Positions 363 through 18,890 are shown, numbered from the stretch's first letter. The stretch is 64,000 nucleotides of DNA from Promethearchaeota archaeon (GCA_048937405.1 JBHLNF010000006.1:128001-192000), one strand, 5' to 3'. The notes: generated from the letters alone by a model not told the origin. Numbers and translations: made by a program.

Positions 363-402
363 GTTAAAATAAAATTAATAAAATTTTTAAAAGCTGTTTT
401 AT

Positions 403-3546: not shown

Positions 3547-4009
3547 AAAAGCAAGTCAATTTGAATATGAACCTAATATTCTAGTATTTTGTTGTAATTG
3601 GTGTAGTTATGCGGGAGCTGACTTAGCGGGGGTTTCGAGATTCCAATATCCACCAAATATTAGGATTATTAGAGTTATGTGTTCTAGTAGAGTTGAGCCC
3701 ACGTTTGTTTTAAGAGCATTTAATAATGGAATAGACGGAGTGTTAGTTATTGGTTGTCATATGGGTGACTGTCATTATATAAAAGGATTCAAATATACAC
3801 AAAACAGAATGGACCATTTAAAAAAGATAATTAAATATATTGGAATTGAAGAAGAACGATTTGAACTACATTCTATTTCTGCAAGTGAAGGAAAACAATT
3901 TTCTGAGCTAATTACAGATTTTACAAATAAAATTATTGATTTAGGAGAATTGAAAATTCCAAAAAAATCTGGAATAATTGAATTAGATTATAATATCAAA
4001 AAAAATTAA
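3530..4009 (+). CDS. mvhD: MvhD-like [2Fe-2S] subunit (Cys form)
   Basis: FCCNWCSY, RVMCSSRV, GCHMGDCHY; start placed at ATG 3530 after an AGGAGG SD. Confidence 0.93.
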   Translation: MLLETKKASQFEYEPNILVFCCNWCSYAGADLAGVSRFQYPPNIRIIRVMCSSRVEPTFVLRAFNNGIDGVLVIGCHMGDCHYIKGFKYTQNRMDHLKKIIKYIGIEEERFELHSISASEGKQFSELITDFTNKIIDLGELKIPKKSGIIELDYNIKKN

Positions 4010-4023
4010 AAAGAGGAAAAAAA

Positions 4024-5148
4024 ATGACTGAATCAGAATTTCAAAAAGTAATAAGAAGTAATATACCCACTTTTGAGGATCTTGAAAATGAAATAATTCA
4101 AACTAAAAAATGTTGTGCATGTGGAGCATGTATAGCATATTGTGAAAGTCAAGGTTTTGATGTTATCGAAATGATTGATAATACGCCTAGGTTTAAATCT
4201 ATAAAGAGTATTGATAATTGCAATAAATGTGGTATTTGCTATTATATATGTCCTCAAACTAAAACATTAATAAAGGAACTAAATAATACTTATTATATTC
4301 ACGATAATACAGGACTTATTAGAAAAATCCTAGCTGCTAAAAGTACAAACTCAGCATTAAAAGAAGTTAAACAAAATGGAGGGATAGTTACAGCAATTCT
4401 TTCTTATCTTTTTAAAAAACATAAAATTGATGCAGCTATTGTTTCGGAATTTAATGATAATCTTGAACCTGTTCCAAAAATTATATTTGATAAAGAAGAC
4501 TTATTTAAATCAGCAGGTACACGATATTCTATTTCTCCTCAAATATTTCCATTAAAAAATATTAATAAATTACCCCAGGAGATTCTTAAAAAAAAGGAGA
4601 TATTTAATATTGACCAGCTTAGATTAGCATTTATAGGGACACCCTGCCAATGTAGAGCTATAAGTAAAATGAAATTCTTATATGTTAAACCAGCTCACGT
4701 AATTAAATATATTATAGGCCTGTTTTGTTTTGAAAATTTTAATTATTCTCAGTTGTATGATATTATAAAACGAGAAACTAATGTTGATCCAACCAATATC
4801 AAAAAAACTTGGATAAAAAAGAATTTTTTTCTCCAAACCAAAGACAATCAACAATATGAAATTAACATAAAAACTCTAAATCCTGCTGTTAGAAGTAATT
4901 GCTTTAAGTGTGATGAATTCACAGGGAGATTTACAGATATCAGCGTTGGGGCATCTGGTGCTCCAGAAGGATATTCTATGATATTAATTCGGAGTGAACG
5001 TGGTGAAAAAGTAATAAATAGCATGCTTTCAAAAGATATAATCAAACAATTTATTATTCCATATGACAAGACTCTTCAGTGGAAGAACAAAAAATTAGAG
5101 TGGTTTAATAAATTAATTTTCTTAAAAATTAAAAATTCTAAAATTTAA
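4024..5148 (+). CDS. FrhB/FdhB/FpoF-family F420-binding subunit with N-terminal ferredoxin
   Basis: CCACGAC and CNKCGIC..CP, GGIVT, GTPCQ, GLFC, DISVG. Confidence 0.88.
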   Translation: MTESEFQKVIRSNIPTFEDLENEIIQTKKCCACGACIAYCESQGFDVIEMIDNTPRFKSIKSIDNCNKCGICYYICPQTKTLIKELNNTYYIHDNTGLIRKILAAKSTNSALKEVKQNGGIVTAILSYLFKKHKIDAAIVSEFNDNLEPVPKIIFDKEDLFKSAGTRYSISPQIFPLKNINKLPQEILKKKEIFNIDQLRLAFIGTPCQCRAISKMKFLYVKPAHVIKYIIGLFCFENFNYSQLYDIIKRETNVDPTNIKKTWIKKNFFLQTKDNQQYEINIKTLNPAVRSNCFKCDEFTGRFTDISVGASGAPEGYSMILIRSERGEKVINSMLSKDIIKQFIIPYDKTLQWKNKKLEWFNKLIFLKIKNSKI

Positions 5149-5212
5149 TCAAGATATATTTATCAAATTAATATATTTTGGATTAATGAAAAAATTTATT
5201 ACATATTTTTTT

Positions 5213-5283
5213 TCTGAAAACCCATGCGAGGGGTTAGTCTCCTCTCAACTATCATTTTTCTGAGAAGTTCATTCTATTTCAGA
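5213..5283 (-). promoter_or_regulatory. SECIS-like element in the 3' UTR of Sec-containing hdrA
   Basis: Minus strand: UAG-A-AUGAA-CUUCUCA-GAAAAAUGAUAGU-UGAGAGG-AGA-CUA, i.e. AUGA/GA core, 7-8 bp helix, A-rich loop, just after the stop; outer helix UCUGAAA/UUUCAGA. Confidence 0.72.
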
Positions 5284-7320
5284 TTATATCTGGTAAGGAG
5301 CTAATGATTCAATCTTTTTCCAAATAAGCTCAATAGAATCAATATATTCTTCTTTATACTCGAGCTCAGTATTACAAATTCCTTTTATTTCTTCGATAAT
5401 TTGTCTATCTCGATAATATTTAAGATCAATTGCTCGAGCTGGACATGATGATATACAAACTCCACACCCTTTGCATTTTAATTCATCTACTTCCGCAATA
5501 TTCTTTCCATTGACTTTTATAGCCTTATAATTACATAACTTTTCACATCTACCGCATCCAACACAGAGATCCTCGTCAATTTCAGCAATTATTAATTCTT
5601 GAGTTATTGTATCTTTAGAGAGTAAAGTTGATGCTTTGCTTGCAGCAGCTAAAGCAGTTGATACTGAATAAGGGATGTTTTTAGGTCCAACAGCACAACC
5701 ACATATATAGATTCCTAGGTTTTTAGTTTCTTGGGGTTTTAAACAACCATGAAATTCAGTTAAAAATCCATTTATATCTTTAGCCACATTTAAAGTTTCA
5801 ATTAATTTGGCTGATGATTTAGAAGGAACCATTCCTGTAGATAATACTATTAAATCAGCTTCCATATTAATGAAATCATTTGTTAAAGTGGAAGAAGCAG
5901 TAACTTTTATTTTCTTAGTGTTTTGATCCTCTCTAATATCTCCTACTTTTCCTCGAATCATTATTATACCCGCTTCTCTCGCTCTTCTATAATATTCTTC
6001 ATTCCCTTTATCCCATGTTCGTATATCTATATAAAAAATAACTATTTCTATATCGGGATATTCACTTTTTAATAATTGAGCATTTTTAAGAGCAACATTA
6101 CAACATACTCCTGAACAGTAGTTATTTCCCTTTAAAGATCTTGAACCTACACATTGAATCATAACAACAGTTTTAGGGATTTTTCCATCAGAAATTCTAT
6201 AAACATGACCTCCTGTTGGTCCAACAGGACTTAATATGCGTTCTAATTCTATTTGAGTAATAACATCAGGATAAATACCATATTGATATTCATTAGTTTC
6301 TATAATTGGATATTCATCCCATCCTGTAGCAATAATTACCGCACCGACCTTTACATCTATATATTCTGTCTCTTGTTCTAAACTAATGGCTCCAGCAGGG
6401 CAAATTCTCTGACAATTTTTACATTCTATGCATGCTTGTTTATCAATTAAGGCAATTTTAGGGACAGCTTGAGGAAAAGGAATGTAAATTGCACCTCGCT
6501 CACCAATACCCCTATCAAACTCACTAGGTACTTTTACTGGGCATTTAGTTGTACATAAACCACATCCAGTACATTTGCTTTCATCAACATATCGAGGATT
6601 TTTCTTTATTTTAACATTATAATCCCCAGGGATGCCATTAAATTCAACAATATCACTATACGTATATAAGTTGATGTTAGGATGTTTTGATGTATTAACC
6701 ATAATAGGGGCTAAAACTCATATAGCACAATCGTCTGTAGGATAAATTCGATCCAATTGTGCCATTTTTCCGCCAATTGTGGCTTCTTTTTCAACTAAAT
6801 GCACATTAATTCCCTGATTTGCTACATCCAACGCAGCATTCATTCCTGCAATACCCGCACCTATTACTAATACTGCCTTTTCTACTGGAATTCTTTTATA
6901 AGGTATAATCTCTAATTCTCTGGCACGATTTATCCCTGCTTGTATTAGTCTAATAGCTTTTTCAGTAGTATTTCGTTTATTTCCTGATTGAGTAAATGAA
7001 CATTGTTCACGGAGATTAACCATTTGCAAGAAATATGGGTTTAATCCTGCTTCAATTAATACATTTCGGTATGTGGATTCATGAATTTTTGGTGAACAAG
7101 CTGCAACAACAACACGATTCAAGTCTAAATCTAAAATGTCATTTTTAATAATATTTTGTCCTGGATCGCTACAAGTAAAATCATTTACTTTAGCAACAAT
7201 TACATTTGGAATTGCTTCAACATAGTCTCTAATAAGATCACAATCAATGCTATTGCTTATATTAACTCCTCATCTACAAATATATACTCCGATTCTTACT
7301 ATGGTCTGTAATTCAGACAT
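5284..7320 (-). CDS. hdrA: Selenocysteine-containing HdrA, 678 aa, U17 and U201 (joins the 6718..7122 and 5284..6702 ORFs)
   Basis: Single frame from ATG 7320; TGA at 7270-7272 (YICR-U-GVNI, cf. VCHCGINI) and 6718-6720 (DDCAI-U-VLAP, cf. DCSLCILAP) both align to conserved Cys of the paralogues in this window; downstream SECIS-like hairpin. Confidence 0.9.
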
Positions 7321-7500
7321 ATTATCAACCTTTTAAAATGTCACCAAATTCATTTCTTTATTAAAAATCAAAATTCTAATTTATTGAGAAAATTTACTTA
7401 AAAGTAATTATAATTTTTTCAAAGACTATTTTCCTATTATTTAGTCAGGTAAGAACAATTTAAGAGATTTGAAAAGAAAAATTTAAATTATTTTGACAAA

Positions 7501-7520
7501 TTTGATAGTCATTTATCAAA
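7501..7520. promoter_or_regulatory. Inverted repeat TTTGATA-N6-TATCAAA, candidate operator in the divergent hdrA/frhB promoter
   Basis: Perfect 7-bp arms; single instance in AT-rich DNA. Confidence 0.3.
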
Positions 7521-7752
7521 CAATTTTTTGGTTTTGATCTCTACTTGATCTGATTCCCAAACTATATTTATTATTTATATAATAAGATATAAGGTATTGG
7601 ATCATCTTATTTTATCAATATCGACAATTAGATAGATAAAATAGATCATATTTAAATATCTTGACAACAATATTAATCATGGTAAATAAAAGAATTATTA
7701 AAATTATCTTTAAGATTTTTAAAATTACAAAAAAAATTGGTGATATTAAAAA

Positions 7753-8871
7753 ATGAGTATAAAGAGTTTTAATGATTTAATTGAAGAGGTCCATAAACCT
7801 GGGATTTGCCAAGAATGTGGAGGATGTGTTAGTTTTTGTAATGCATTAGAATATGATGTGATTGGGTTTGTTAAATCTAATTCCCCTCCAGAATATATAA
7901 ACAAGGATAAGTGCCTCGGGTGTGGAATATGTTATATTATTTGTCCACAAACTCACGTTTTAGATGACGATCTCAATAACGAATATAAATTTTCAGATTA
8001 TATTAAAATGCCATTAGGATATGTCAATTCGCTTTACTCATGCCAAGCTACAGATAGTGAATTTTTGAAACATGGAACAGATGGCGGAGTTGTAAATTCA
8101 ATTATTAATTATTTAATTGAAAAAAAAATAATTGATGGAGCAATTGTGGCAAAAACAAAATTGCCTTTCTCAAGAGAAGCTACTATAGTTGAAAATAAAG
8201 AAGAATTAATTGAGGCTTCAGGTATAAAATTAGACATATCTCCACAATTAGATAGTGTTCAGAAATTTCATACATATACAAATTCTTTACCTAAATTAAA
8301 AACTCAAAAAGTTAGGAAATTAGCATTAGTAGGGACGCCATGTCAGATTTACACTATTAGATGTATGCAAAGTTTAGGTATTATTCCCTCTGAAAATATA
8401 GAAATTTGTTTAGGATTGTTTTGCTACGAGAATTTTTTCTTTGATAAGAGAAAGGTTGAGAAATTTGAGAAAGATTTTAATATAAAATTCAAAGATATTG
8501 AAAAAATAAACATTAAAGAAGATTTAATTGTTAATTTAAAGAATAATAAAATTATTCATATACCATTTAACAAACTAAAGGATTATATGCGTAAAGCTTG
8601 CTCTGTATGTAAAGATTTCACTAATATTTATGCCGATATTTCTTTTGGAGGATTAGGATCCCCCAAGAAATTTACAACTGTAATCACTCGTACTAAAAAG
8701 GGAGAAAATATTTTTAATAAAGTTTTAAATTCAGGGATTATCAAAAGTTTAAAATTAGATATAAATTCCAAAAATGAAATAAAGGAAAAAATTACCCAAT
8801 TTTCTCTCTCAAAATTAAAACGAACAGAACAAAGTTTGAATCATAAATTATCAACGCAAGACCATAATTAA
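7753..8871 (+). CDS. FrhB/FdhB/FpoF-family F420-binding subunit with N-terminal ferredoxin
   Basis: CQECGGC, CLGCGIC..CP, DGGVV, GTPCQ, GLFC, DISFG; paralogue of 4024..5148. Confidence 0.88.
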   Translation: MSIKSFNDLIEEVHKPGICQECGGCVSFCNALEYDVIGFVKSNSPPEYINKDKCLGCGICYIICPQTHVLDDDLNNEYKFSDYIKMPLGYVNSLYSCQATDSEFLKHGTDGGVVNSIINYLIEKKIIDGAIVAKTKLPFSREATIVENKEELIEASGIKLDISPQLDSVQKFHTYTNSLPKLKTQKVRKLALVGTPCQIYTIRCMQSLGIIPSENIEICLGLFCYENFFFDKRKVEKFEKDFNIKFKDIEKINIKEDLIVNLKNNKIIHIPFNKLKDYMRKACSVCKDFTNIYADISFGGLGSPKKFTTVITRTKKGENIFNKVLNSGIIKSLKLDINSKNEIKEKITQFSLSKLKRTEQSLNHKLSTQDHN

Positions 8872-8969
8872 GGAATTCTAATAATAAAGAAGAAAAATTT
8901 TTTTATAATCTAAAAAGTAAAAATAAAAATATTTATCTTATAAAAGGAAAAAGAAGATGATTAAAAAAG

Positions 8970-11519
8970 ATGGATATTTATTCAATTTTATCTCATCCAT
9001 TTAGGAGGAAAATTTTATTTCTTTTAGATAAAGAAGGATATATCCCTTATACTGAATTAATGGAAAAACTTAATTTAGATACAACTGGACAATTAAATTT
9101 CCATCTTAAAAAGATTGGATCATTAATAGATAAAGACAATAAATCATATTTTCTTACAGAAGATGGTAAACGTGTTTTAAAAATTATAAATCTTAATAAA
9201 AGAATTTTATCGGGAGAATATATTGATGAGTATTTTGATTCAAAAGGAAGCGAAATAAGTCGGATTGGAGTAATTATTTGTAATTGCAATACAGAAATTT
9301 CAAATGTAATTGATATTAAAGCACTTGAAAATTATGTGAATAAATTAAAAAAAGTAGTCTCGGTAAAAATATTTGAAAATCTTTGTCAGCAAAAGAATTT
9401 CGAGAAAATTCAAAATTGGGTAAAAGATAATTTTATAAATAAAATAGTAATAGCTGCTTGTTCTCCCAAAACTCACCAAAATCTTTTTGAAAGAATTTTT
9501 GAAGATATTATTGATCATACAAATATAGAATTTGCTAACATTAGAGAACAATGTTGCTGGGTACATCAACCGCAAATAGATCAAAATTTCCCTTTACTTT
9601 CTCTAGAAAAAGCGAAATTATTAATTGAAGCAGCTGTAGAACGCGTAAATTTTCAAAAAAAATTAAAAGTAAAGAGAGTTGAAGTTGAGAAAAGTTGTGC
9701 TATTTTAGGTGGTGGAATTGCAGGCATAACTCTCGCTTTAAACTTAGCACGATCCGGAATAAAAGTATATCTTATTGAAAAATCACCAACATTGGGGGGT
9801 AAGGTAGCTAGATGGCACAAAATTCATAATATGGGCGATTGTTCAATATGTTTTATTTCTGAATTAATAGCGGAATTAGTTAATGAAAAGAATATAAAAA
9901 TATATACAAATACAGAAATAGAGAACGTATCAGGAGAAGTAGGGAATTTCACAATTAATATGATTAAGAAACCTCGGTATGTTGATGTAAAAAAATGTAC
10001 TGGATGTAAACAATGTATATCTGTTTGTAGTATAGAAAAACCAAATCAATATGAATTTGGGTTAAGCAATCGAAAAATAATATATATTCCATTTATACAT
10101 TCTTATCCTTATGCACCTTTAATTGATGAGGAAGATTTAAAAAATTGTCTTAATTGTAAGATTTGTGAACGTGCTTGCGTAAATAAAGCAATAGATTTAA
10201 GTCAGAAAGAAGAGAAAATTGAAATAAGAGTCGGTACTAAAGTTATCGCTATTGGATCTGATTTTTATAAAGATTTAAAAGAATATCATTATAATCCCAA
10301 AAAAAATATAATAACATCACCAGAATTTGAGCGCCTTTTAGCTTCTGATGGTTTAACTGAGGGAAAACTCAGAAAGATATCAGATAAAAGTCCCGTAAAT
10401 TCGATTTCAATAATTCAGGAAGTTGGTCCATCAAAATATCTAGCAGAGTTCTCTGAAAATTTAGCAGAAAAATATATTGAGGATGTTAAAATAAGAAATC
10501 CTCATTGTGAAGTAAATGTTTTCTATGATTTAAGTAAATTAAAGAATAGGGATGAAATTTTGTTAAGATCTACAAACCCTAGATTTATTTATGCCAATAA
10601 AATTAGTATTAAATCTACTAAGGATGTGAATTACGTTATTGCTGATAACATAGAATTTCAAAGCGATTTGATAGTTTTAAATATAAAATATATCCCCAAT
10701 GAAGATTTAAAAAATCTTAGACAATATATGGATTTTACACTAAATTTCAATGGATTTATGAGTGAAGACACGTTAGCATCGGGAATTTATGGTGTTGGAA
10801 CTATCTTTGGTCCTTTAAATTATAAATCCACAATTTCAACAGTTAATAATGTTGCTTTAAAAGTAATTTCATTACTTTCTAAAGAATATTTAATAGCAGA
10901 ATTTACTGGAATTGAAATAAATGAAAATAGATGTGGTTTATGCGGTTTATGTTTAAAAATATGTCCTTATAATGCCATCACAATAGAGGGAGATAAAATT
11001 ACCATAGATAAATTCAAATGTAAAGGTGGCGGTACATGTGCTAGTATCTGTCCTACCAATGCTATAGATCTAAACATAGATACTTCTGAGAAAATCTTGA
11101 GAACAATTAGAATTTTCTCAAAATTCAGATCAAGTCCAAAAATCATTGCCTTTTGTTGTGCTTCTTGTGGATATGCTGCTGCGGATGATGCAGGGCTTAA
11201 GAAAATTTCCTATACTCCAAATATTTTCATCATAAGAGTGCCCTGTACGGGTCGTATTGATACAAATTTTATTATTAAATCATTTGAACTCGGTTTCGAT
11301 GGAGTTATGATAATTGGTTGCAGACAAGATGCTTGTCGGTATATAGATGGAGTAAAAAAGATAGAAAACAAAATTAGACTATTAACAAATGTTATAGCTA
11401 CAAAGTATAAAGATCGAATAATCCTTGAACATTTGAATGCTGTTGAAGGAAATAAATTTGCTGAGATTGCCAATAAATTCTATAATAACCTATTGGAGGA
11501 GATTAAATATGAAACCTAG
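8970..11519 (+). CDS. ArsR-like winged-helix - degenerate HdrA - MvhD fusion protein
   Basis: N-term LSHPFRRKIL..YTELMEKL..TGQLNFHLKKI..YFLTEDG (wHTH); ICNC, AACSP, REQCCWVH, GGGIAG, ferredoxin motifs (HdrA); FCCASCGY, RVPCTGR, GCRQDACRY (MvhD). Confidence 0.85.
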   Translation: MDIYSILSHPFRRKILFLLDKEGYIPYTELMEKLNLDTTGQLNFHLKKIGSLIDKDNKSYFLTEDGKRVLKIINLNKRILSGEYIDEYFDSKGSEISRIGVIICNCNTEISNVIDIKALENYVNKLKKVVSVKIFENLCQQKNFEKIQNWVKDNFINKIVIAACSPKTHQNLFERIFEDIIDHTNIEFANIREQCCWVHQPQIDQNFPLLSLEKAKLLIEAAVERVNFQKKLKVKRVEVEKSCAILGGGIAGITLALNLARSGIKVYLIEKSPTLGGKVARWHKIHNMGDCSICFISELIAELVNEKNIKIYTNTEIENVSGEVGNFTINMIKKPRYVDVKKCTGCKQCISVCSIEKPNQYEFGLSNRKIIYIPFIHSYPYAPLIDEEDLKNCLNCKICERACVNKAIDLSQKEEKIEIRVGTKVIAIGSDFYKDLKEYHYNPKKNIITSPEFERLLASDGLTEGKLRKISDKSPVNSISIIQEVGPSKYLAEFSENLAEKYIEDVKIRNPHCEVNVFYDLSKLKNRDEILLRSTNPRFIYANKISIKSTKDVNYVIADNIEFQSDLIVLNIKYIPNEDLKNLRQYMDFTLNFNGFMSEDTLASGIYGVGTIFGPLNYKSTISTVNNVALKVISLLSKEYLIAEFTGIEINENRCGLCGLCLKICPYNAITIEGDKITIDKFKCKGGGTCASICPTNAIDLNIDTSEKILRTIRIFSKFRSSPKIIAFCCASCGYAAADDAGLKKISYTPNIFIIRVPCTGRIDTNFIIKSFELGFDGVMIIGCRQDACRYIDGVKKIENKIRLLTNVIATKYKDRIILEHLNAVEGNKFAEIANKFYNNLLEEIKYET

Positions 11520-12267
11520 ATTCAATATAATTTCTCTAACATCATGTACAGGATGCATATCAACTCTTATGTCTTTAGATATTTTTCCTCAATTTCTTGA
11601 AAGAACAAAAATAAATTATTTTCCATTTATTTTAGATGCAGACGATGTTGAAAATTGCGAAATTGCACTAGTAGAAGGATGTATTTCTGAAGAAACACAA
11701 ATATCTCTTATTAGAAAAATAAGAAAAAGTGCTAAAAAAGTAATTGCTTTAGGAACTTGTGCCTGCTTTGGTGGAGTTTTAAGCCTTTCTAATTCAAAAC
11801 AAGCAGAGCCTCTATCTAACCATATTGAAATTGATGGTATGATTCCTGGTTGTCCTCCTCCATCTAAATTTTTTGGAAATTGTTTAATCAACTTGGTTGG
11901 AAATAAAGATATAATATTATCCGAAAAGAATATGTGTGCAAATTGCCCAATAAGGGAAAATCTAGAAATTAATTCTAATATAAATATAACTAAAATAAAT
12001 CCTAATCCTGAAGAAATTAGAGTAGATGAAGAAAACTGTAATTGTTTTTTAAATAATGGTATTTTATGTTTAGGTCCAATAACTCGTGAAGGTTGCGAAC
12101 ATAAATGTATAAAAATGGGGCTTCCTTGCGAAGGATGTATGGGGCCTGTATCAAAAGATTTTACATCTAATGTTGTAAATTATTTGAGTTTAATAGAACT
12201 TTCTCAAGACTTAAAAAATTATACTGGAATTTTTTATCGATTTTCGAAACCAAAAATTAATAGGTAA
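11509..12267 (+). CDS. mvhG: [NiFe] hydrogenase small subunit, MvhG-like (group 3)
   Basis: SCTGC, VEG, GTCACFGG, IPGCPP, CANC, CLGPIT..GC...C......CEGC; ATG 11509 overlaps the end of the upstream gene. Confidence 0.85.
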   Translation: MKPRFNIISLTSCTGCISTLMSLDIFPQFLERTKINYFPFILDADDVENCEIALVEGCISEETQISLIRKIRKSAKKVIALGTCACFGGVLSLSNSKQAEPLSNHIEIDGMIPGCPPPSKFFGNCLINLVGNKDIILSEKNMCANCPIRENLEINSNINITKINPNPEEIRVDEENCNCFLNNGILCLGPITREGCEHKCIKMGLPCEGCMGPVSKDFTSNVVNYLSLIELSQDLKNYTGIFYRFSKPKINR

Positions 12268-12272
12268 AATTA

Positions 12273-13577
12273 ATGCTTAAAATTGTAAATGTTTGTACGC
12301 GTGTTGAAGGTCATGGAGAAGTTAAAATTATGCTTCAAAATGATGGAGTATCCTTAGCAAATTTTGAATTTCCAGTTTATCGGGGATTTGAAAAATTTCT
12401 AATTGGTAAAAAGCTGCTTGATATTCCTAAATTTGTATCTCGAATATGCGGTTTATGTTATGCTTCTCAAGCAATTGCAAGTTGCAAAACATTAGAAAAT
12501 ATTTACAATTTAGAAATTTCAGAACAAAGCATTAATTTAAGACGCCTTTTAATGGCTGCGGAATTAATAAAATCTCATTCTATGAATTTTTTCTTTCAAA
12601 CTATGCCAGATCTTTTAAAAATTTTTAAAATTACTCAAAAAACTTTATCTCCGTATGAATTAATCAAATTTAATCCTCAATTAACGTCAAATTTATATGA
12701 TTTAATTAAATTTGGAAGTGAAATAAATGAGTTATTTGGTGGTAGATCTGTTCACTTAATTTCAATTGTTCCTGGAGGCGTTATTTATTCTCCTTCTCGA
12801 AAATTAATTTCATTATCTCAAAAATATTTTCAAAAAGCTTTAACCGTTATAGAATGGATCATAGAAGAATTTATCCAATTATTTGCTGATAAAACTCCTC
12901 CAAGAGAATTTAATTTACCGGATTTTATTTGTTTAGCACAAAATAATCATGGTATATATGATCGATATTCTGGCTCATTAAGAATTAAAGAAGAAGACAA
13001 GAACTTAATAGAATTTGAAGCCCAAAACTTCTCTACCTATTTTAGTAAAGAGATAAATCTCCGAGGCATTGATTTTTATTTCGAAAATAAAAAGAATTTA
13101 ATAGTTGGACCTTTCTCACGTTATAATCTTATTGAGAATTATGAATTGGATCAAATCGATACTTATATTGAATACTTTAATAAATCTTGGAAAAAGAATT
13201 TATTATTCATTAATTTTTTGAGATTACTAGAAATATATATTGAATCTTATAAAAGTATACAAATATTGGAGGAACCTTCATTAAACGTTAAGAAAAATCT
13301 TCCTCCTCTAGATGCTATTAAGAAGAATGAGGGTATTGGTGTTATTGAAGCCCCAAGAGGAACTTTAATACATAATTATCATTTAAATAAAAACAATAGT
13401 ATTGATAGAATAAAACTATTTATTGCTACTGAGTTTAATATTCCACTTCTTGATCAAATGATAACTAAATATGCTCAAGAACTATTCGACAAAACTGGTG
13501 ATATTAAATTAGTAGAAAAAGAAGTACAGATGATAATTAGAACCTTTGATCCTTGTATTTCATGTGCTACGCATTAA
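12273..13577 (+). CDS. mvhA: [NiFe] hydrogenase large subunit, MvhA-like (group 3), without C-terminal extension
   Basis: TRVEGH, RGFE, RICGLC (L1), EAPRG, DPCISCATH-stop (L2). Confidence 0.9.
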   Translation: MLKIVNVCTRVEGHGEVKIMLQNDGVSLANFEFPVYRGFEKFLIGKKLLDIPKFVSRICGLCYASQAIASCKTLENIYNLEISEQSINLRRLLMAAELIKSHSMNFFFQTMPDLLKIFKITQKTLSPYELIKFNPQLTSNLYDLIKFGSEINELFGGRSVHLISIVPGGVIYSPSRKLISLSQKYFQKALTVIEWIIEEFIQLFADKTPPREFNLPDFICLAQNNHGIYDRYSGSLRIKEEDKNLIEFEAQNFSTYFSKEINLRGIDFYFENKKNLIVGPFSRYNLIENYELDQIDTYIEYFNKSWKKNLLFINFLRLLEIYIESYKSIQILEEPSLNVKKNLPPLDAIKKNEGIGVIEAPRGTLIHNYHLNKNNSIDRIKLFIATEFNIPLLDQMITKYAQELFDKTGDIKLVEKEVQMIIRTFDPCISCATH

Positions 13578-13656: not shown

Positions 13657-14712
13657 ATGAAGATTAAAAATTTTGCTGACAAAATAAAGATTGTCATCAT
13701 AATAGTGCTTTTAATTTTTTCATCTATACTGAATTACATATTCCAAATAGTTTTAGAAATTAACATCTTTTTTTCACATTTTTTCTATATTCCAACAATT
13801 CTAGCTTGTTTCTGGTGGAAAAGGTATGGCTTATTTATACCTATATATTTAGCAGTCTCACTAATTTTATTTCCCTTTTTTTTTGGTATAATTATTGATT
13901 ATTTACATAATTTAGAACAAATCCTTCGAGCTATAATGATTATAATTGTTGGTATTATAGTTAGTGTTCTAAGTGAACATATTTCAAAAACTAAAGAATT
14001 TACAAAAGCTTATAGTAATATTCTTTTTTATAGAGATTTAATTAGCCATGATATGAACAACATCTTTCAGAATATTTTGTCATCTACAGAACTACATTCA
14101 ATTATAAAAAAAAATAGCAATATTGTTGATGAGCAAGATGAATTAATTAAAATAATAAGAGATCAATGTTTTAGAGGAGTTAGATTAACTTTAAATGTAC
14201 AAAATCTAACAAAATTAGAAGATTCTCAATTTTATTTAAAAAAAGTAAATTTAAAAGAAATACTCAATGAATCGATTAAAAATATTAAAAATTATTACCA
14301 GGATAAAGAAATAACATTTGATATAGAGGCACCAAATAAAATACTTTGGATTAAAGCAAATGAATTATTATCTGAAATATTCATTAACTTATTTATTAAT
14401 TCTGTGAAATATAATGAAAGCCCTATCGTAGAAATCAAGATAAAGGTCTCGAATGAAAAAATTAATAGTCTAGATTATTTAAAAATTGAAGTTAAGGATA
14501 ATGGAATTGGAATTCCTGATGAACGTAAAAAAATTATATTTGAGAGAAGAAATAAGAAAAATAAGTATTCTAAAGGAATGGGAATTGGACTATCAATTGT
14601 TAAAGGAATCCTTAATAAATATAATGGAAAAATTTGGGTTGAAGATAAAGTATTTGGAGATTATTCAAAAGGGAGTAATTTCATTATATTAATTCCTCAA
14701 GCTTTTGACTAA
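13657..14712 (+). CDS. Membrane sensor histidine kinase
   Basis: ~4 TM N-terminus, H-box SHDMNN, NLFINSVKY, DNGIGI, GMGIGL. Confidence 0.9.
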   Translation: MKIKNFADKIKIVIIIVLLIFSSILNYIFQIVLEINIFFSHFFYIPTILACFWWKRYGLFIPIYLAVSLILFPFFFGIIIDYLHNLEQILRAIMIIIVGIIVSVLSEHISKTKEFTKAYSNILFYRDLISHDMNNIFQNILSSTELHSIIKKNSNIVDEQDELIKIIRDQCFRGVRLTLNVQNLTKLEDSQFYLKKVNLKEILNESIKNIKNYYQDKEITFDIEAPNKILWIKANELLSEIFINLFINSVKYNESPIVEIKIKVSNEKINSLDYLKIEVKDNGIGIPDERKKIIFERRNKKNKYSKGMGIGLSIVKGILNKYNGKIWVEDKVFGDYSKGSNFIILIPQAFD

Positions 14713-15126
14713 AATTTTTGTATGAAATTATAATGATTGAATTTCAAAAAATTCATGATAAGAACCACAATATTTAATTTTTCAATGATGTTCAATATTG
14801 AAAGATTAAATGTTATTTTCTACTAATTTTATAATTTAAGATCAAAAATAGGGTTAAAAAAATAGTAAAATTGCAATATATTATGATCATAAAGAATGAT
14901 ATTTTATTATTTCCGCAATATTTCTTCATAATAAATTACATTCAAGTTATCATTCTTAGATGATTTATTGACTATCAGTAATCTTATGCCTTATTGCATA
15001 AATCTTATATACATAAAATGATACATAATATATGAAGAAACAAACAAAATAGAAATACTCCATCAAAATATTTTATCAAAATCAATAAAGAACTTTTTAA
15101 AAAAATAAATAAGTGAAAGATATAAT

Positions 15127-15657
15127 TTGAGATTACTCCCAGAATTTTTTCAGATCTATGTATTATACATTGATAGAGTTAAGGGTGTAATTCCAATTTT
15201 AATTTTTTCAAATAAATTTACTCAAAAAAATAAAATGCAAATATTTCTAATAAAATTTCACCCAATTAGGTTTCTTGATCCAGAAAATGAAACAGATTCT
15301 GAGCAAATTAATCTAATTTATAATGGAGAAGTCTATTATGCTAAAAGAGTTAAGCTTAAAATTAAGGACAAAAATTTTGAAAAAGCATATATTATACTCA
15401 TATTGAAAAAGGAATTGAGCATTTATGGCACTGATTTACTTAATATTATAACAGATATAATCAAAAAAAATTTTTCATATTCTTTAAATAACTATTTAAA
15501 ATCTGAAATTTTAAAGGAAGATTTGATAAAATCTTCCAGAAGAGAAGAGATTATAAAAGAAGGTAAAATTGTTAAAGAAAATATTAAAAAACAACTAAGA
15601 AAAATTTGTGAAAAATATTTTGAGTCAGTTATATATTCTTTAGAAAAAATCTATTAA
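15127..15657 (+). CDS. Hypothetical protein, short paralogue of 29805..30854 (uDENN/longin-like)
   Basis: YVLYIDRVKGVIPILIF..KFHPIRFL matches YVMFFDEKRGQVPLLMY..NFHPVWFL. Confidence 0.6.
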   Translation: MRLLPEFFQIYVLYIDRVKGVIPILIFSNKFTQKNKMQIFLIKFHPIRFLDPENETDSEQINLIYNGEVYYAKRVKLKIKDKNFEKAYIILILKKELSIYGTDLLNIITDIIKKNFSYSLNNYLKSEILKEDLIKSSRREEIIKEGKIVKENIKKQLRKICEKYFESVIYSLEKIY

Positions 15658-15679
15658 ATTTTTAAATAAAAAAAATGAG

Positions 15680-16138
15680 GTGGTAAAAATATATAAGAAA
15701 ATATTATTCGCAACTGATGGGTCACCCTGTTCAGAGGAAATTTCTAAAAAAATTGTTGAATTTCAGAAAGAATGGAATTGTAAAGTAGTAATTTTTCACT
15801 CAATAAAGGATCATACATTCTTTCCAATAGTCAATTTTGATAAAAATCGTTTATTATCGGATTATAGAAATAATGAAGATCTTCATAATGAATTAGGAAA
15901 AAGGATATTAAAAGAAACTGGGAAAATATTTGAAAGATTAGATATTCCTATAGAGCTACGATTAATTAAAAAGGAGAATTCGGCAAACTATATTAAAAGA
16001 ATAATAAAAGAAGAGAAATTTGATCTTGTAATTATATGTATGGAAGGGTATCATAATAAATCAAAAATGTTATTCTTACCAACAGACTTTTCTAGAGTAT
16101 TAGAAGAAAATTCATGTGATATTTTAATTGTTCCTTAA
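15680..16138 (+). CDS. Universal stress protein (UspA family)
   Basis: YKKILFATDGS...FDLVII...CDILIV. Confidence 0.88.
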   Translation: MVKIYKKILFATDGSPCSEEISKKIVEFQKEWNCKVVIFHSIKDHTFFPIVNFDKNRLLSDYRNNEDLHNELGKRILKETGKIFERLDIPIELRLIKKENSANYIKRIIKEEKFDLVIICMEGYHNKSKMLFLPTDFSRVLEENSCDILIVP

Positions 16139-16153
16139 TTTTTTTTTTTAATT

Positions 16154-17029
16154 TTAAAAGGTTATTTTATGAGACATTTTAAATATATCTATAAAACTTG
16201 AGACATGTATTGGTGATTGGATACCATCTAATGTTTTAATTTCTTCATTAATAAACTTCCAAAGATCTTTTTCGTTTTTCGCAATAATTTTTACTAATAA
16301 ATTATGATCTCCTGTAGAGGACGCAACCAATTGTATTTCATCATATTTTGAGAGTTTTTTAGCGGTATTGTCAGATTTCAACGGATCTACAGAAAGACCC
16401 AGAATGGCTATTGAATTATACCCCACTTTAAAAGGATCCACAAATGTATCAAATTTCTTTATGATACCCTCTTTTACCATATTTTGTACTCGATTATGTA
16501 TAGTACTGGCAGCTAAATTCACTTTTTTACTTAGATCTTTATAAGAGATTTTATAATTTTCTTGTAGAAAATTAAGAATTTCTTTATCTTTTTCATCGAA
16601 TATCGCTCTAGGAGTTTTTTCTATTATCTTTTCAGTTTCACTTTTATGTCTTTCAATAGCATATGTAATCGCTCGTGTTAAACTTCCTTCATTTAATTCA
16701 TCCTTTACGATATAGTCTTGAGCTCCTTTTTGAAGAGTTTTTAGTGCAAAGTCCTTATCATCTAATCCAGTTAAAACAATTATAGGAATAGTGCTACTAT
16801 TGTTTAAAACATTTTCTAGAGTATTTTCTCTATCACTATCTGGTAAGGTTAAATCTAACAAAATAATATCAAAATCTTTGGACCTAAGACGATTCATACC
16901 TTCAGAAAGTCTAGGTTTAGAATCTAAATCGAATTTAAAGTCTTCAGAGGTTTTCAGTAATTCTTCAATAAGACGTACATCAGCTTTATTATCTTCAATT
17001 AAGAGAATTTCAATCTTGTCTTTCCCTAT
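16154..17029 (-). CDS. Response regulator: REC domain fused to Lrp/AsnC HTH + RAM domain (probable ATA start)
   Basis: Frame extends 44 codons upstream of 16897 to include ILLIEDN; DIILLDLTLPD, VLTG, DYIVK; DEKDKEILNFLQ..STIHNRV..; GGTGA SD followed by ATA. Confidence 0.85.
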   Translation of the reverse strand: MGKDKIEILLIEDNKADVRLIEELLKTSEDFKFDLDSKPRLSEGMNRLRSKDFDIILLDLTLPDSDRENTLENVLNNSSTIPIIVLTGLDDKDFALKTLQKGAQDYIVKDELNEGSLTRAITYAIERHKSETEKIIEKTPRAIFDEKDKEILNFLQENYKISYKDLSKKVNLAASTIHNRVQNMVKEGIIKKFDTFVDPFKVGYNSIAILGLSVDPLKSDNTAKKLSKYDEIQLVASSTGDHNLLVKIIAKNEKDLWKFINEEIKTLDGIQSPIHVSSFIDIFKMSHKITF

Positions 17030-17098
17030 TTTTATTCACCAGAGAACAATTTTTTATGATTAACAGAAATAATTTTTTTAAATGCAAATTCCTTATTC

Positions 17099-17111
17099 TG
17101 AATAATATTCA
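17099..17111. promoter_or_regulatory. Palindrome TGAATAATATTCA, candidate Lrp-family operator
   Basis: Member of the recurring YGAAT-WWW-ATTCR motif; upstream of REC-Lrp. Confidence 0.55.
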
Positions 17112-17220
17112 TTCATCTATTTATATTTATTTCTAACAAATTAAAAATCTATCGAATAAAATCTTACTTTATTAATTAATATTATAATTAAATTCTTATT
17201 CGATAAAATATATTTTATGT

Positions 17221-17233
17221 TGAATATTATTCT
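17221..17233. promoter_or_regulatory. Near-palindrome TGAATATTATTCT, candidate Lrp-family operator
   Basis: Same motif, one mismatch. Confidence 0.45.
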
Positions 17234-17357
17234 TAATAAATAAGAATAATTTATATTTTTATAAAAAAAAACATTTAGTGTTAAGTCTAATTTTTTAATT
17301 TTAAGGATATTTAATTAATATCTCTAAAAAAATCAAAAAAAAATCATATAATTAGAT

Positions 17358-18431
17358 TTGAGGATAATTGAAATGAAATTGAAAAGAAAGGAAGAAAGAA
17401 TGAAAATATTGATTATTTTAATTTTAAATATAATTTCTGTTGTATTAATTTATTATTTCGAGGTAATACTTAAAACATCAATATTAATTGCACATTTTTT
17501 TTATTTTCCTTCAATTTTAGCCTGTTTATGGTGGAAAAGGAAAGGTATATTTATTCCTATTTTTCTAGCGGTAGTATTAGTCCTTTTTAATATTATTCCA
17601 GAAGTAGATTTTTTTAGTATAGAGGTAGTAAATAACTTCTTGAGAGCAATCTCATTAATCATTATTGGAATAATTGTATCATTATTATCTGAGCATATTG
17701 CTAAGGAAGAAATTGAATTTAATGAAATAATGAATGATTTAAAACGTTCTAATGAAGATTTACAACAATTTGCTTACGTAGCATCTCATGATCTACAAGA
17801 ACCCTTAAGAGCAATTGTAAGTTTTTCCCAACTTCTAGAAGAAAGATACAGCGATAAAATTAATAGCAATGGGGCTGAATTTATTCATTTCATCATAGAT
17901 GGAGCAAAGAAAATGAATATTCTTATCAAGGATCTACTCTCATATTCTAGAATCACAACCCAAGCTCAACCTTCAAAATTAACTAATCTTGAGGAGGTTT
18001 TAAAAGAGGCTTTATTTAATTTGCAAGAAGCAATAAAGGAAAGCGATGCAATTATTACTTATGATGAAATGCCAATATTAAAAGTTGATAAAATTCAGTT
18101 TATTCAATTATTTCAAAATCTAATTAGCAATTCTATAAAATTTCGAAAACAAGAATCACCCAAAATACATATAGGAATAAAAAAGATTAATGATAAATGG
18201 TTATTCTCTATAAAAGATAATGGAATAGGAATAGAATCAAAATATTTTAATAAGCTTTTTAATATCTTTTATAGATTACATACTAAAGAAGAATATCCCG
18301 GTACAGGGATAGGATTACCTATATGTAAAAAAATAGTTCAACGTTATGGTGGTGAAATATGGGTAGAATCAGAATATGGGAAAGGCTCAACTTTTTACTT
18401 TACAATTGCACAAGAAAAAAATAGAAATTAA
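17358..18431 (+). CDS. Membrane sensor histidine kinase (Cph1-like transmitter)
   Basis: TM N-terminus, QQFAYVASHDLQEPLR, FQNLISNSIKF, DNGIGI, YPGTGIGL. Confidence 0.92.
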   Translation: MRIIEMKLKRKEERMKILIILILNIISVVLIYYFEVILKTSILIAHFFYFPSILACLWWKRKGIFIPIFLAVVLVLFNIIPEVDFFSIEVVNNFLRAISLIIIGIIVSLLSEHIAKEEIEFNEIMNDLKRSNEDLQQFAYVASHDLQEPLRAIVSFSQLLEERYSDKINSNGAEFIHFIIDGAKKMNILIKDLLSYSRITTQAQPSKLTNLEEVLKEALFNLQEAIKESDAIITYDEMPILKVDKIQFIQLFQNLISNSIKFRKQESPKIHIGIKKINDKWLFSIKDNGIGIESKYFNKLFNIFYRLHTKEEYPGTGIGLPICKKIVQRYGGEIWVESEYGKGSTFYFTIAQEKNRN

Positions 18432-18443
18432 TTCTATAAAATT

Positions 18444-18890
18444 ATGAATGGATTTAAAAAAGTGGAAGCGACAATCTTACTAATAGAAGATAATGCCGCC
18501 GATATTCATCTTACTAAAGAAGTTCTTCGAGAGAATAGTATTGTAAGTGAATTATATATTGTAAGAGATGGTGTTGAAGCAATTGATTTTTTAAAGAAAC
18601 AAGGGAAATATTCAAATGTAAATAGACCAAATTTAATTCTTTTGGACTTAAACTTACCCAAGAGAAATGGATTTTACGTATTGGAAAAGATTAAAGAAAA
18701 TGAAGAACTAAAAAGGATTCCAGTAGTCATTTTAACAATATCTGATGCTAAGGATGATCTAATAAAGGCGTATAATCTTCATGCCAATTGCTATGTGATT
18801 AAACCGTTAGAAATAAAAGAATTTTATAGAATTATTAATTCAATAGTGAATTTTTGGTTTACTATTGTAAAACAATATGAAGATGAATAA
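18444..18890 (+). CDS. Single-domain response regulator (Rcp1-like)
   Basis: ILLIEDN, LLDLNLPK, IPVVILT, AYNLHANCYVIKP. Confidence 0.92.
   Translation: MNGFKKVEATILLIEDNAADIHLTKEVLRENSIVSELYIVRDGVEAIDFLKKQGKYSNVNRPNLILLDLNLPKRNGFYVLEKIKENEELKRIPVVILTISDAKDDLIKAYNLHANCYVIKPLEIKEFYRIINSIVNFWFTIVKQYEDE

What the first reader, a model, noticed from the sequence alone, without database searches (positions are those of the whole stretch)
8970..13577. Candidate H2/redox-sensing transcription system: wHTH-HdrA-MvhD fusion with a dedicated sensor-like MvhAG hydrogenase
Seen: one 849-aa ORF joins an ArsR-like winged helix (~80 aa) to an HdrA body and a C-terminal MvhD. It is translationally coupled to mvhG (overlap at 11509-11519), then mvhA follows after a 5-bp gap and a histidine kinase after that; no hdrB/hdrC is in the operon. 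Known: in MvhAGD-HdrABC, electrons flow H2 -> MvhA -> MvhG -> MvhD -> HdrA-FAD. Inference: the same wire has been repurposed to end in a DNA-binding domain, giving a one-component H2/redox-sensing regulator built from a bifurcating complex, probably controlling the flanking hdr/frh genes. Supporting signs are sensor-type features of the large subunit and loss of cluster ligands in the HdrA part. I know of no description of such a system.
Basis: partly seen in the sequence, partly recalled or inferred. Interest (0 to 1): 0.93.

Follow-up and report, generated by a model that had tools for sequence, protein, structure and literature searches.

The report
Candidate hydrogen-sensing hydrogenase–regulator fusion
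Many Asgard archaea carry a conserved operon in which a DNA-binding domain is fused to a cut-down HdrA–MvhD flavoprotein and paired with a hydrogenase bearing the hallmarks of bacterial H2 sensors, and a matching palindrome sits in the operon's own promoter, so it is probably a hydrogenase complex that reports H2 or redox state directly to DNA, which has not been described.

Summary
The 849-aa ORF joins an ArsR-type winged helix, an HdrA body and MvhD. It overlaps mvhG by 11 nt, and mvhA follows after 5 nt.

The fusion is not a chimera. About 117 of 399 Asgard species genomes from 9 families carry it, down to 38% identity, always followed by mvhG and mvhA.

Family-wide features:
- The HdrA part has lost the flavin-domain cluster that feeds HdrBC but keeps the FAD motifs, the Cys pair and the other clusters.
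- MvhA has Gln in place of the conserved active-site His (118 of 118) and no C-terminal extension (118 of 120). Both are hallmarks of bacterial H2-sensing hydrogenases.
- The winged helix is the most conserved segment.

New here: a palindrome, TGAYAA-N6-TTRTCA, lies in the operon's promoter region in nearly all lineages. In an out-of-sample test, 11 of 20 distant loci had it, against 0.6% of control upstream regions. This argues for autoregulatory DNA binding.

In this genome the operon starts at frhB2 (7753).

H2 or redox control of DNA binding is inferred, not shown. No description was found in the literature searched. First readers flagged the same architecture in other genomes of this scan.

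The parts
7494..7511 (.). Candidate distal operator O2, TGACAAATTTGATAGTCA (1 mismatch to TGAYAA-N6-TTRTCA). It lies 168 nt upstream of O1 and about 175 nt upstream of the divergent Sec-hdrA start.
   Evidence: The same 168-nt pair occurs as perfect sites in G187 and G188. Of 30 loci in this genus, 16 show two sites, most of them 167-169 nt apart.
7640..7723 (+). Conserved promoter block: TATA-like ATTTAAATA (7650-7658), then O1, then about 45 conserved bases.
   Evidence: nhmmer with a profile built from 27 genus members hits here with E 1.5e-9, the only significant hit in the genome. Alignment. The TATA and transcription-start assignment is inferred.
7662..7679 (.). Candidate proximal operator O1, TGACAACAATATTAATCA (1 mismatch), 3 nt downstream of the TATA-like element.
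   Evidence: Out-of-sample enrichment.
7753..8871 (+). frhB2: an FrhB/FdhB-like FeS flavoprotein and the first gene of the operon in this genome. It is present in about 20 of 30 loci of this genus and absent in other genera.
   Evidence: Pfam FrhB_FdhB_C E 1.7e-38 and FrhB_FdhB_N. Promoter block upstream. Synteny.
8970..9209 (+). ArsR-type winged helix (res 1-80) with recognition helix TTGQLNFHLKK.
   Evidence: DUF7347. Profile against PDB: best match 1y0u, E 1.4e-8. AF2 pLDDT 89, and all top 50 fold matches are DNA-binding regulators. It is the most conserved segment, at 83.5%.
9210..9254 (+). Conserved linker (res 81-95), low confidence in the full-length model.
   Evidence: pLDDT below 50 for res 82-94, yet 75% identity among close homologues, with I79 and G82 invariant and Y88 invariant or nearly so.
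9255..11129 (+). HdrA-like body. It keeps the N-terminal cluster domain, the FAD motifs, the Cys291/Cys294 pair, the inserted ferredoxin domain and the C-terminal ferredoxin domain. The flavin-domain cluster motif is absent (about 10416-10469). G687 replaces a Cys at 11028-11030.
   Evidence: Alignment to the HdrA chain of PDB entry 8rvu. Family alignment.
11136..11492 (+). Fused MvhD domain with its [2Fe-2S] Cys ligands retained.
   Evidence: FlpD E 9.4e-34. 5odc_D E 3.8e-24. C730, C733, C759, C784 and C789 are invariant.
11509..12267 (+). mvhG-like small subunit. The Cys motifs for three clusters are present.
   Evidence: 5odc_E E 3.3e-31, with the Cys motifs aligned. VhuG-like by NCBIfam.
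12273..13577 (+). mvhA-like [NiFe] large subunit with Gln66 in RxCGxCxxxQ, ending at DPCISCATH.
   Evidence: Across the family, 118 of 118 have Gln and 118 of 120 have no extension.

Best explanation
This is a hydrogenase complex that doubles as a transcription regulator, in the manner of a trigger enzyme or one-component sensor.

Proposed electron path: H2 is split at the MvhA-like subunit. Electrons run through the three clusters of the MvhG-like subunit to the [2Fe-2S] cluster of the fused MvhD domain. From there they pass via the conserved Cys291/Cys294 pair to the FAD of the HdrA-like body.

The cluster that hands the high-potential electron to HdrBC is gone, and no HdrBC is encoded with the operon. 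The flavin and the remaining clusters can therefore exchange electrons only with H2/H+ and, through the inserted ferredoxin domain, with ferredoxin. In some genera FrhB may be a further partner. Their redox state would thus report H2 pressure and ferredoxin reduction.

The N-terminal ArsR-type winged helix hangs, by a conserved linker, on the HdrA N-terminal domain. In Mvh-Hdr that domain is part of the mobile arm. The winged helix is proposed to bind, as a dimer, the TGAYAA-N6-TTRTCA operators at the operon's own promoter, probably as a repressor. It may also bind upstream of a neighbouring methylene-H4MPT-dehydrogenase-like cluster. Redox-linked movement of the arm would change that binding.

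Shown here: the architecture, which ligands are kept and lost, the family-wide features resembling a regulatory hydrogenase (RH), and the conserved palindrome.

Inferred: that the winged helix binds the palindrome, that H2 or redox state controls binding, the sign of regulation, and the size of any catalytic flux.
For: 1. Conserved module. The best 120 cluster representatives are 67-91% identical, and nearly all carry DUF7347. About 117 of 399 genomes of the phylum, in 9 families, match res 1-240. Fusions at 38% identity (P0140, P0206) keep the same fusion-mvhG-mvhA order.

2. ArsR-type winged helix. It is the most conserved segment, at 83.5% against 73-77% for the enzyme domains. T39, G40, L42, N43 and H45 of the recognition helix are invariant down to 38% identity.

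3. Operator.
- The palindrome is found upstream of the operon in 25 of 30 genus loci as a perfect match and in 28 of 30 with at most one mismatch.
- It is also present in L018, L019 and L021.
- In loci fetched after the motif was defined, 6 of 20 were perfect and 11 of 20 had at most one mismatch within -150. Among 2231 control upstream regions the counts were 0 and 13.
- In the single-contig genomes G187 and G188, 2 of only 3 and 2 of only 4 perfect sites genome-wide lie upstream of this operon. A third G188 site lies about 9 kb further upstream, at the same spacing as the own-genome site by the 205-aa gene.

4. Large subunit. Gln stands at the His position, in the same alignment column as HoxC Gln, while HoxG and this genome's own VhuA have His. 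This holds in 118 of 118 representatives, and 118 of 120 have no C-terminal extension. PMC5665086 calls this Gln characteristic of RH. PMC7294309 lists H2 sensors among the hydrogenases without an extension.

5. The flavin-domain cluster motif is lost in all 50 homologues, while Cys291/294, the FAD motifs and the other clusters are kept. PMC13580544 assigns HA4 to the branch leading to HdrB and the Cys pair to electron entry from MvhD.

6. The genome has a separate canonical [NiFeSe] vhuGAU-hdrCB locus and a Sec-HdrA.
Against: - There is no experimental datum and no RNA data.
- The transcription start is unknown, so the position of the operator relative to the promoter is inferred.
- The palindrome could be bound by another factor.
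- The complex keeps the FAD motifs and the Cys motifs for a [2Fe-2S] and five [4Fe-4S] clusters in the fusion, plus three more in MvhG. In this genus FrhB is often co-transcribed. That is a lot of machinery for a pure sensor and suggests real electron flux.
- Candidate sites are almost confined to this locus, so the main regulated output is the complex itself.
- According to PMC5665086, the Gln of RH does not seem to be involved in H2 sensing. Hydrogenases of groups 4c and 4e also lack the extension, and they are catalytic.
- The distant P0206-type locus keeps His and has a short C-terminal tail ending ...CATN plus 7 aa.
- Several distant loci (L055, L058, L063, L072) show no site.
- The assignment of the lost motif to HA4 rests on my recollection of the 2017 Mvh-Hdr structure paper and on the motif's position in the flavin domain. 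No tool result shows it.
Confidence: 0.6

Rival explanations
1. It is an ordinary metabolic hydrogenase: a non-bifurcating H2:ferredoxin, or FrhB-coupled, oxidoreductase. The winged helix only autoregulates the amount of enzyme, independently of H2 or redox state, or responds to some other ligand.
For: - The FAD motifs and all clusters except one are strictly kept, including the ferredoxin-facing inserted domain.
- frhB2 is co-transcribed in about 20 of 30 genus loci.
- Candidate operators are nearly confined to the operon itself.
- Protein identity is high, 67-91%.
- Catalytic group 4c and 4e hydrogenases also lack the C-terminal extension (PMC7294309).
Against: - The Gln replacing a His that PMC5665086 describes as conserved in all non-sensor [NiFe] hydrogenases is strictly conserved here, 118 of 118.
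- The module is dispensable in close relatives: about 14 of 53 other genomes of the genus lack it, some 97-99% complete.
- A canonical Vhu/Hdr set exists elsewhere in the genome.
- A DNA-binding domain on the mobile arm of a redox enzyme with no redox coupling would be an odd design.
Confidence: 0.25
2. The winged helix does not bind DNA. It is a structural or protein-docking domain, and the palindrome belongs to another transcription factor.
For: - Winged helices can mediate protein contacts.
- The linker is conserved rather than free to vary.
- No binding test was made.
Against: - By sequence it is an ArsR/SmtB-type domain with the canonical recognition-helix pattern.
- All top 50 structural neighbours are DNA-binding regulators.
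- The only DNA-binding domain that travels with the palindrome across families is this one. The flanking genes differ between L017, L018, L019 and L021.
- The motif is too rare genome-wide to belong to a global factor: 8 sites in 4.5 Mb here, 3 in G187.
Confidence: 0.1
3. The fusion is an assembly or gene-calling artefact.
For: None found. A few database entries of 816-819 aa start at Met31, which looks like start-codon miscalling.
Against: - The same 849-aa frame occurs in over 100 independently assembled genomes, including single-contig ones.
- A contig from an unrelated study bridges 8700-9555.
- There is no stop or frameshift in the frame.
Confidence: 0.01

Closest known systems
H2-sensing regulatory [NiFe] hydrogenase HoxBC-HoxJ-HoxA of Cupriavidus necator (group 2b; HupUV-HupT-HupR in Rhodobacter)
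   Same: A hydrogenase proposed to report H2 rather than to conserve energy. The large subunit has Gln in place of the conserved His and no C-terminal extension, and the small subunit has three clusters.
   Different: - It is not related at clade level: 21% identity to HoxC, and the best matches are Mvh-type and other group 3 enzymes.
- There is no conserved histidine kinase or response regulator.
- The signal would pass through MvhD and an HdrA flavoprotein to a DNA-binding domain in the same polypeptide.
- The host is an archaeon.
MvhAGD-HdrABC (Vhu/Hdr) electron-bifurcating hydrogenase:heterodisulfide reductase of methanogens
   Same: The same subunit families and the same wire from the NiFe site through the MvhG clusters and the MvhD [2Fe-2S] to the Cys pair and FAD. 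HdrA has N-terminal, inserted and C-terminal ferredoxin domains.
   Different: The flavin-domain cluster leading to HdrBC is lost, and hdrBC is not in the operon. MvhD is fused to HdrA, and a winged helix is added at the N-terminus. The large subunit has Gln and no extension.
HdrA2 of Methanosarcina (HdrA-MvhD fusion in HdrA2B2C2; NCBIfam NF040770)
   Same: It is the best family match (E 1.5e-172, res 98-841) and has the same HdrA plus C-terminal MvhD architecture.
   Different: The score of 576 bits is far below the family cut-off of 1100. HdrA2 works with HdrB2C2 and has neither a winged helix nor a dedicated MvhGA.
Trigger enzymes with a DNA-binding domain, such as PutA (RHH plus flavoenzyme), BirA and archaeal RbkR (from my own knowledge)
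   Same: An N-terminal DNA-binding domain on an enzyme that regulates its own operon. In PutA the redox state of the flavin switches the protein off DNA.
   Different: The enzyme families are unrelated. Here the input would be H2, delivered by an attached hydrogenase.
SurR of Thermococcales (a redox-switched ArsR-like regulator of hydrogenase genes; from my own knowledge)
   Same: An archaeal ArsR-type winged helix that links redox state to hydrogen metabolism genes.
   Different: SurR is a free-standing protein switched by a CxxC disulfide. The match to the winged-helix profile is not significant (2quf, E 0.27).

Membership tests
MvhAGD-HdrABC (group 3c hydrogenase:heterodisulfide reductase) | Large subunit with RxCGxC and DPCxxCxxH Ni-Fe ligands, closest to MvhA | tested here: met
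   Both motifs are present. The best solved relatives are 7t2r_D, the large subunit of a NiFe hydrogenase, and MvhA 5odc_F, with E 4e-51 and 9e-50.
MvhAGD-HdrABC (group 3c hydrogenase:heterodisulfide reductase) | HdrA with FAD and its full set of [4Fe-4S] clusters, including the flavin-domain cluster (HA4) that feeds HdrBC | tested here: not met
   The C-X12-C-X3-CC motif has no Cys in any of 50 homologues. The FAD motifs and the other clusters are kept.
MvhAGD-HdrABC (group 3c hydrogenase:heterodisulfide reductase) | HdrB and HdrC partners encoded with, or recruited by, the complex | tested here: not met
   There is no hdrBC in the operon in L017, L018, L019, L021 or the window. Physical recruitment of the hdrCB on contig C26 cannot be tested with these tools.
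H2-sensing regulatory hydrogenases (group 2b) | Gln instead of the conserved His next to the active site | tested here: met
   Gln66 lies in the same alignment column as the Gln of HoxC. It is found in 118 of 118 family representatives.
H2-sensing regulatory hydrogenases (group 2b) | Large subunit without a C-terminal maturation extension | tested here: met
   The protein ends at DPCISCATH, as do 118 of 120 representatives. This feature is not exclusive to sensors (PMC7294309).
H2-sensing regulatory hydrogenases (group 2b) | Sequence membership of the group 2b clade | tested here: not met
   Identity to HoxC is 21%. The nearest solved and NCBIfam relatives are Mvh/Vhu and sulfhydrogenase types. 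No formal tree was built.
H2-sensing regulatory hydrogenases (group 2b) | Signal output through a HoxJ/HupT-type histidine kinase | tested here: not met
   The downstream kinase is missing from L017, L019 and L021, and L018 has an unrelated-looking 339-aa gene with no Pfam hit.
ArsR/SmtB winged-helix regulators | ArsR-type wHTH sequence and fold | tested here: met
   Profile against PDB: 1y0u E 1.4e-8, followed by PagR and ArsR. HTH_20 and HTH_5 are found in relatives. The AF2 model has pLDDT 89 and TM-scores of 0.6-0.7 to YodB, CadC, PagR and NolR.
ArsR/SmtB winged-helix regulators | Dimer that binds a palindromic operator at its own promoter | tested here: inconclusive
   A conserved palindrome is present at the promoter, but binding was not tested.
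HdrA2 (NF040770) | Score above the curated family cut-off | tested here: not met
   575.6 bits against a cut-off of 1100.

The most novel reading that the evidence does not exclude
This would be a previously undescribed way for cells to sense H2, and the first H2 sensor known in archaea. A dedicated low-turnover [NiFe] hydrogenase charges an HdrA-MvhD flavoprotein whose own N-terminal winged helix then releases or binds TGAYAA-N6-TTRTCA operators. H2 pressure would be read out on DNA within a single complex, with no kinase or second messenger. The regulated genes would include the complex itself and a Wood-Ljungdahl-branch dehydrogenase cluster.
Probability: 0.4. Interest if true: 0.92.

Novelty: new variant of a known kind. 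Interest (0 to 1): 0.85.

Why it matters
How archaea perceive H2 is, to my knowledge, an open question, and I know of no archaeal H2 sensor. The searches run here found no paper that mentions Asgard archaea together with H2 sensing.

H2 exchange is at the centre of Asgard physiology and of syntrophy models for the origin of eukaryotes. A hydrogenase wired directly to a DNA-binding domain would be a new signalling architecture. It would also be a natural example of an electron-bifurcating module turned into a switch.

The claim is directly testable, because this work gives a defined protein, a defined 18-bp site and a defined stimulus. It also warns that a part of the 'group 3c Mvh-Hdr' genes counted in Asgard metabolic reconstructions are not MvhADG-HdrABC.

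Tried and rejected
- **Assembly chimera.** Rejected on conservation and on a bridging contig from another study.
- **Histidine kinase as part of the system.** Rejected because it is not syntenic.
- **Winged-helix homodimer by complex prediction.** No verdict; score 0.30 against a mark of 0.42. This counts neither for nor against.
- **Expression.** No RNA holder is listed among public runs. The Logan contigs are too fragmented to say more than that the stretch exists in several studies.
- **K-mer enrichment in the 130 nt before the fusion start.** It gave only a purine-rich leader and TATTTGAA. It was confounded by frhB2 coding sequence and by relatedness. The real promoter turned out to lie upstream of frhB2.
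- **Generic inverted-repeat listing.** Too many AT-rich repeats to interpret on its own.
- **Regulon search in the own genome.** The nhmmer block profile found only the operon's own promoter, plus a weak second copy at C19:126741-126796 (E 2.4). The pattern has 8 perfect sites genome-wide, about what I estimated from base composition, and no preferred spacing. I found no evidence for a large regulon.
- **23 sites with at most one mismatch within 200 nt upstream of ORFs.** Not followed up, apart from the two at this locus.
- **Literature.** Searches for DUF7347, HdrA plus helix-turn-helix, and Asgard plus H2-sensing gave no description. Asgard papers treat these genes as MvhADG-HdrABC.
- **Docking of the winged helix on the HdrA body.** This could not be read, because the tool returns no coordinates or PAE.

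Full report
**1. The observation**

The ORF map matches the finding:
- an 849-aa ORF at 8970-11519;
- a small-subunit gene whose conserved start is ATG 11509, giving an 11-nt overlap;
- a large-subunit gene at 12273-13577 after a 5-nt gap;
- a membrane histidine kinase at 13657-14712.

Pfam, NCBIfam and PDB searches give the domain order of the fusion:
- DUF7347 winged helix, res 2-73;
- HdrA, res about 96-720, best family HdrA2 (E 1.5e-172) but far below its cut-off;
- MvhD/FlpD, res 725-841.

**2. The fusion is real and old**

A database search returned 861 relatives. The best 120 clusters are 67-91% identical, nearly all are 845-855 aa long, and nearly all carry DUF7347.

A whole-genome search of 399 species of the phylum, using residues 1-240 (winged helix plus HdrA N-terminal domain), found full-length matches in about 117 genomes of 9 families. 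Identity fell as low as 40%. Within the window's own genus about 40 of 54 genomes have it. Several genomes that are 97-99% complete lack it, so the module is accessory.

A search with the first 100 residues found two further 838-aa and 845-aa fusions at 38% overall identity.

In every locus examined the fusion is followed by mvhG and mvhA. The other neighbours differ. The kinase is not conserved. An unrelated study's contig bridges the domain junction.

**3. What has changed in the HdrA part**

I aligned the fusion to solved HdrA and to 49 homologues.

Kept:
- the four Cys of the N-terminal domain;
- the GGGIAG and other FAD motifs;
- the DCxxC pair (Cys291/Cys294, equal to Cys202/Cys205 of M. 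marburgensis);
- both CxxCxxCxxxC motifs of the inserted ferredoxin domain;
- the C-terminal ferredoxin domain;
- the MvhD ligands.

Lost: the C-X12-C-X3-CC motif of the flavin domain has no Cys in any family member.

[quoted passage not shown] They assign cluster HA4 to passing the high-potential electron from FAD to HdrB. They also show that the N- and C-terminal HdrA domains, together with MvhAGD, form a mobile arm (PMC13580544, PMC12350162). That the lost motif is HA4 is my recollection of the 2017 structure paper plus its position in the flavin domain. No tool result shows it.

On that reading, the family has specifically lost the exit to HdrBC. This fits the absence of hdrBC from the operon.

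**4. The hydrogenase**

MvhG aligns with solved MvhG, and the Cys motifs for three clusters are present.

MvhA has both Ni-Fe ligand motifs, but it reads RICGLCYASQ. In a joint alignment this Gln falls in the column of the Gln of HoxC, the H2-sensor large subunit of C. necator. The membrane-bound HoxG and this genome's own VhuA have His there. The protein ends at the His of DPCISCATH. MvhA of methanogens and HoxG carry an extension beyond that point.

Among 120 cluster representatives at 51-95% identity, 118 of 118 with the motif have Gln, and 118 of 120 end without an extension.

The literature calls this Gln a characteristic of regulatory hydrogenases, replacing a His that is conserved in all others. 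It also says the Gln seems not to be involved in sensing itself (PMC5665086). H2 sensors lack the extension, but so do catalytic groups 4c and 4e (PMC7294309).

The distant P0206-type locus keeps His and ends ...CATN plus seven residues.

**5. The genome has ordinary Hdr/Vhu parts elsewhere**

- Contig C26 carries vhuG-vhuA, a small Sec-containing vhuU (YDCULSCAAH plus an extension) and hdrC-hdrB.
- The window carries an HdrA with two in-frame UGA codons on the minus strand (5284-7320).
- The window also carries an HdrD-like gene, a 1047-aa double HdrA, MvhD and FrhB (3-5148).

**6. The winged helix**

- A profile of the domain matches ArsR-family structures. The best is 1y0u (E 1.4e-8), followed by PagR and ArsR.
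- The domain model has pLDDT 89. All top 50 fold matches are DNA-binding regulators of the ArsR, HxlR and MarR type, with TM-scores of 0.6-0.7.
- In the full-length model (pLDDT 83) the domain is well folded, and residues 82-94 have low confidence.
- It is the most conserved segment of the protein, at 83.5% mean identity against 73-77% for the enzyme domains.
- T39, G40, L42, N43 and H45 of the recognition helix are invariant down to 38% identity.
- Its relatives are some 800 mostly small archaeal DUF7347/ArsR proteins.

**7. A conserved cis-element (new in this stage)**

In 27 members of the genus an ~85-nt non-coding block lies upstream of the operon. It sits before frhB2 where that gene is present, and directly before the fusion where it is not. 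The block reads as follows:
- a TATA-like ATTTATATA;
- three bases;
- TGAYAA-N6-TTRTCA;
- about 45 further conserved bases.

In the window the block is at 7640-7723, with O1 at 7662-7679. A second site, O2, is at 7494-7511. Each has one mismatch.

Of the 30 genus loci, 25 have a perfect site and 28 have a site with at most one mismatch. Sixteen show two sites, most of them 167-169 nt apart.

I defined the motif from this genus plus L018 and L019. I then fetched 20 upstream regions from other genera and families, at 40-75% identity. Within -150 of the start codon, 6 had a perfect site and 11 had a site with at most one mismatch. Among 2231 control upstream regions of this AT-rich genome, the counts were 0 and 13 (0.58%). 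These hits come from about seven separate lineages.

The 38%-identity P0206 locus has a perfect site at -52.

In the single-contig genomes G187 and G188, 2 of only 3 and 2 of only 4 perfect sites genome-wide lie upstream of this operon. A third G188 site lies about 9 kb further upstream.

Genomes without the fusion have 3 sites in 4.4 Mb and 10 sites in 6.0 Mb, not examined for position.

The only DNA-binding domain that accompanies the palindrome in all these lineages is the fusion's own winged helix. This is the classical comparative signature of an autoregulated operator. It is not a binding assay.

**8. Possible second target**

The own genome has one perfect site at C19:126306, about 170-186 nt upstream of a 205-aa gene. 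That gene heads a cluster of 205-aa, 242-aa and 331-aa genes, the last carrying an Mpt_N domain (methylene-H4MPT dehydrogenase-like).

The orthologous cluster is the divergent neighbour of the fusion operon in L018 and L019. The 205-aa proteins are 62% identical.

In L021 an Mpt_N gene lies just downstream of mvhA, behind another perfect site.

In this genome a hdr/frh gene island of about 10 kb separates the two. The third perfect site of G188 lies at the same ~9.2-kb spacing, which suggests the same layout there.

**9. Reading**

The data fit a hydrogenase complex whose flavoprotein subunit is also a DNA-binding autoregulator. The complex has lost the bifurcation outlet and has acquired the active-site and maturation traits of H2 sensors.

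The simplest mechanism has two parts. The redox state of the FAD and clusters is set by H2 and probably by ferredoxin. That state is transmitted through the mobile N-terminal domain and the conserved linker to the winged helices of the HdrA dimer, and it changes operator occupancy.

Whether the complex also carries a meaningful catalytic flux is open. If it does, it is a trigger enzyme, and possible activities are ferredoxin-linked H2 evolution or uptake, or FrhB-coupled turnover. The retained cofactors and frhB2 argue for flux. The RH-like traits, the accessory distribution and the faster-evolving large subunit argue for a sensor.

**10. Literature and earlier notes**

Searches found no description of a winged-helix HdrA, of DUF7347, or of an Asgard H2 sensor. 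Asgard papers file these genes under MvhADG-HdrABC.

First-stage notes of this scan flag the same architecture in this genome and in other genomes. They are unchecked and do not count as independent support. I re-tested their sequence claims here.

Noticed in passing
window 5284-7320 (-): An HdrA gene with two in-frame TGA codons (CR-U-G and CAI-U-V), read as selenocysteine. It is called as two ORFs under table 11. It is divergent from the frhB2-fusion operon, and O2 lies about 175 nt upstream of its start.
   Followed up: partly
own genome C26:118628-122966 (L015:2629-6967, -): A second hydrogenase locus: vhuG-like (441 aa), vhuA-like (435 aa), a small vhuU-like ORF with Sec (YDCULSCAAH plus an extension), then hdrC and hdrB. 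This is the canonical catalytic set and is separate from the fusion operon.
   Followed up: partly
own genome C19:121387-126323 (L016:3387-8323): A 205-aa / 242-aa / 331-aa (Mpt_N, methylene-H4MPT dehydrogenase-like) / CDC48 cluster, with a perfect TGACAATAATAATTGTCA upstream of the 205-aa gene. The same cluster is the direct divergent neighbour of the fusion operon in L018 and L019. An Mpt_N gene follows mvhA behind a perfect site in L021. It may be a second target of the regulator.
   Followed up: partly
window 1-7320: An hdr/frh gene island of about 10 kb appears to be inserted between the Mpt_N cluster and the fusion operon, compared with L018 and L019. It holds an HdrD-like CCG protein, a 1047-aa double HdrA-like protein, MvhD, FrhB and Sec-HdrA.
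   Followed up: no
own genome C19:126741-126796 (L016:8741-8796): A weak second copy of the promoter block (TATA plus CTTGATTACC...TAATCATG), upstream of a small Zn-ribbon ORF and the HdrD-like operon. nhmmer gives E 2.4, which is not significant on its own.
   Followed up: no
window 11028-11030: Gly687 replaces the second Cys of the last CxxCxxCxxxCP motif. This occurs only in this protein and its 91% relative. The same lineage has TAATCA instead of TTATCA in O1.
   Followed up: partly
L021:8039-9367: The large subunit of the distant P0206-type operon keeps His in RxCGxCxxxH and ends DPCVSCATN plus 7 residues, so the terminal His is replaced by Asn.
   Followed up: no
window 8872-8969: The frhB2-fusion spacer carries a TATTTGAA-like element and a purine-rich leader, both conserved in the genus. 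It may be an internal promoter or a translation signal.
   Followed up: no
window 13657-19561: A two-component block: a membrane kinase, a receiver-AsnC/Lrp regulator, a HisKA kinase, a receiver, and a second AsnC-type regulator. It is partly syntenic in L018 but is not linked to the fusion operon in other lineages.
   Followed up: partly
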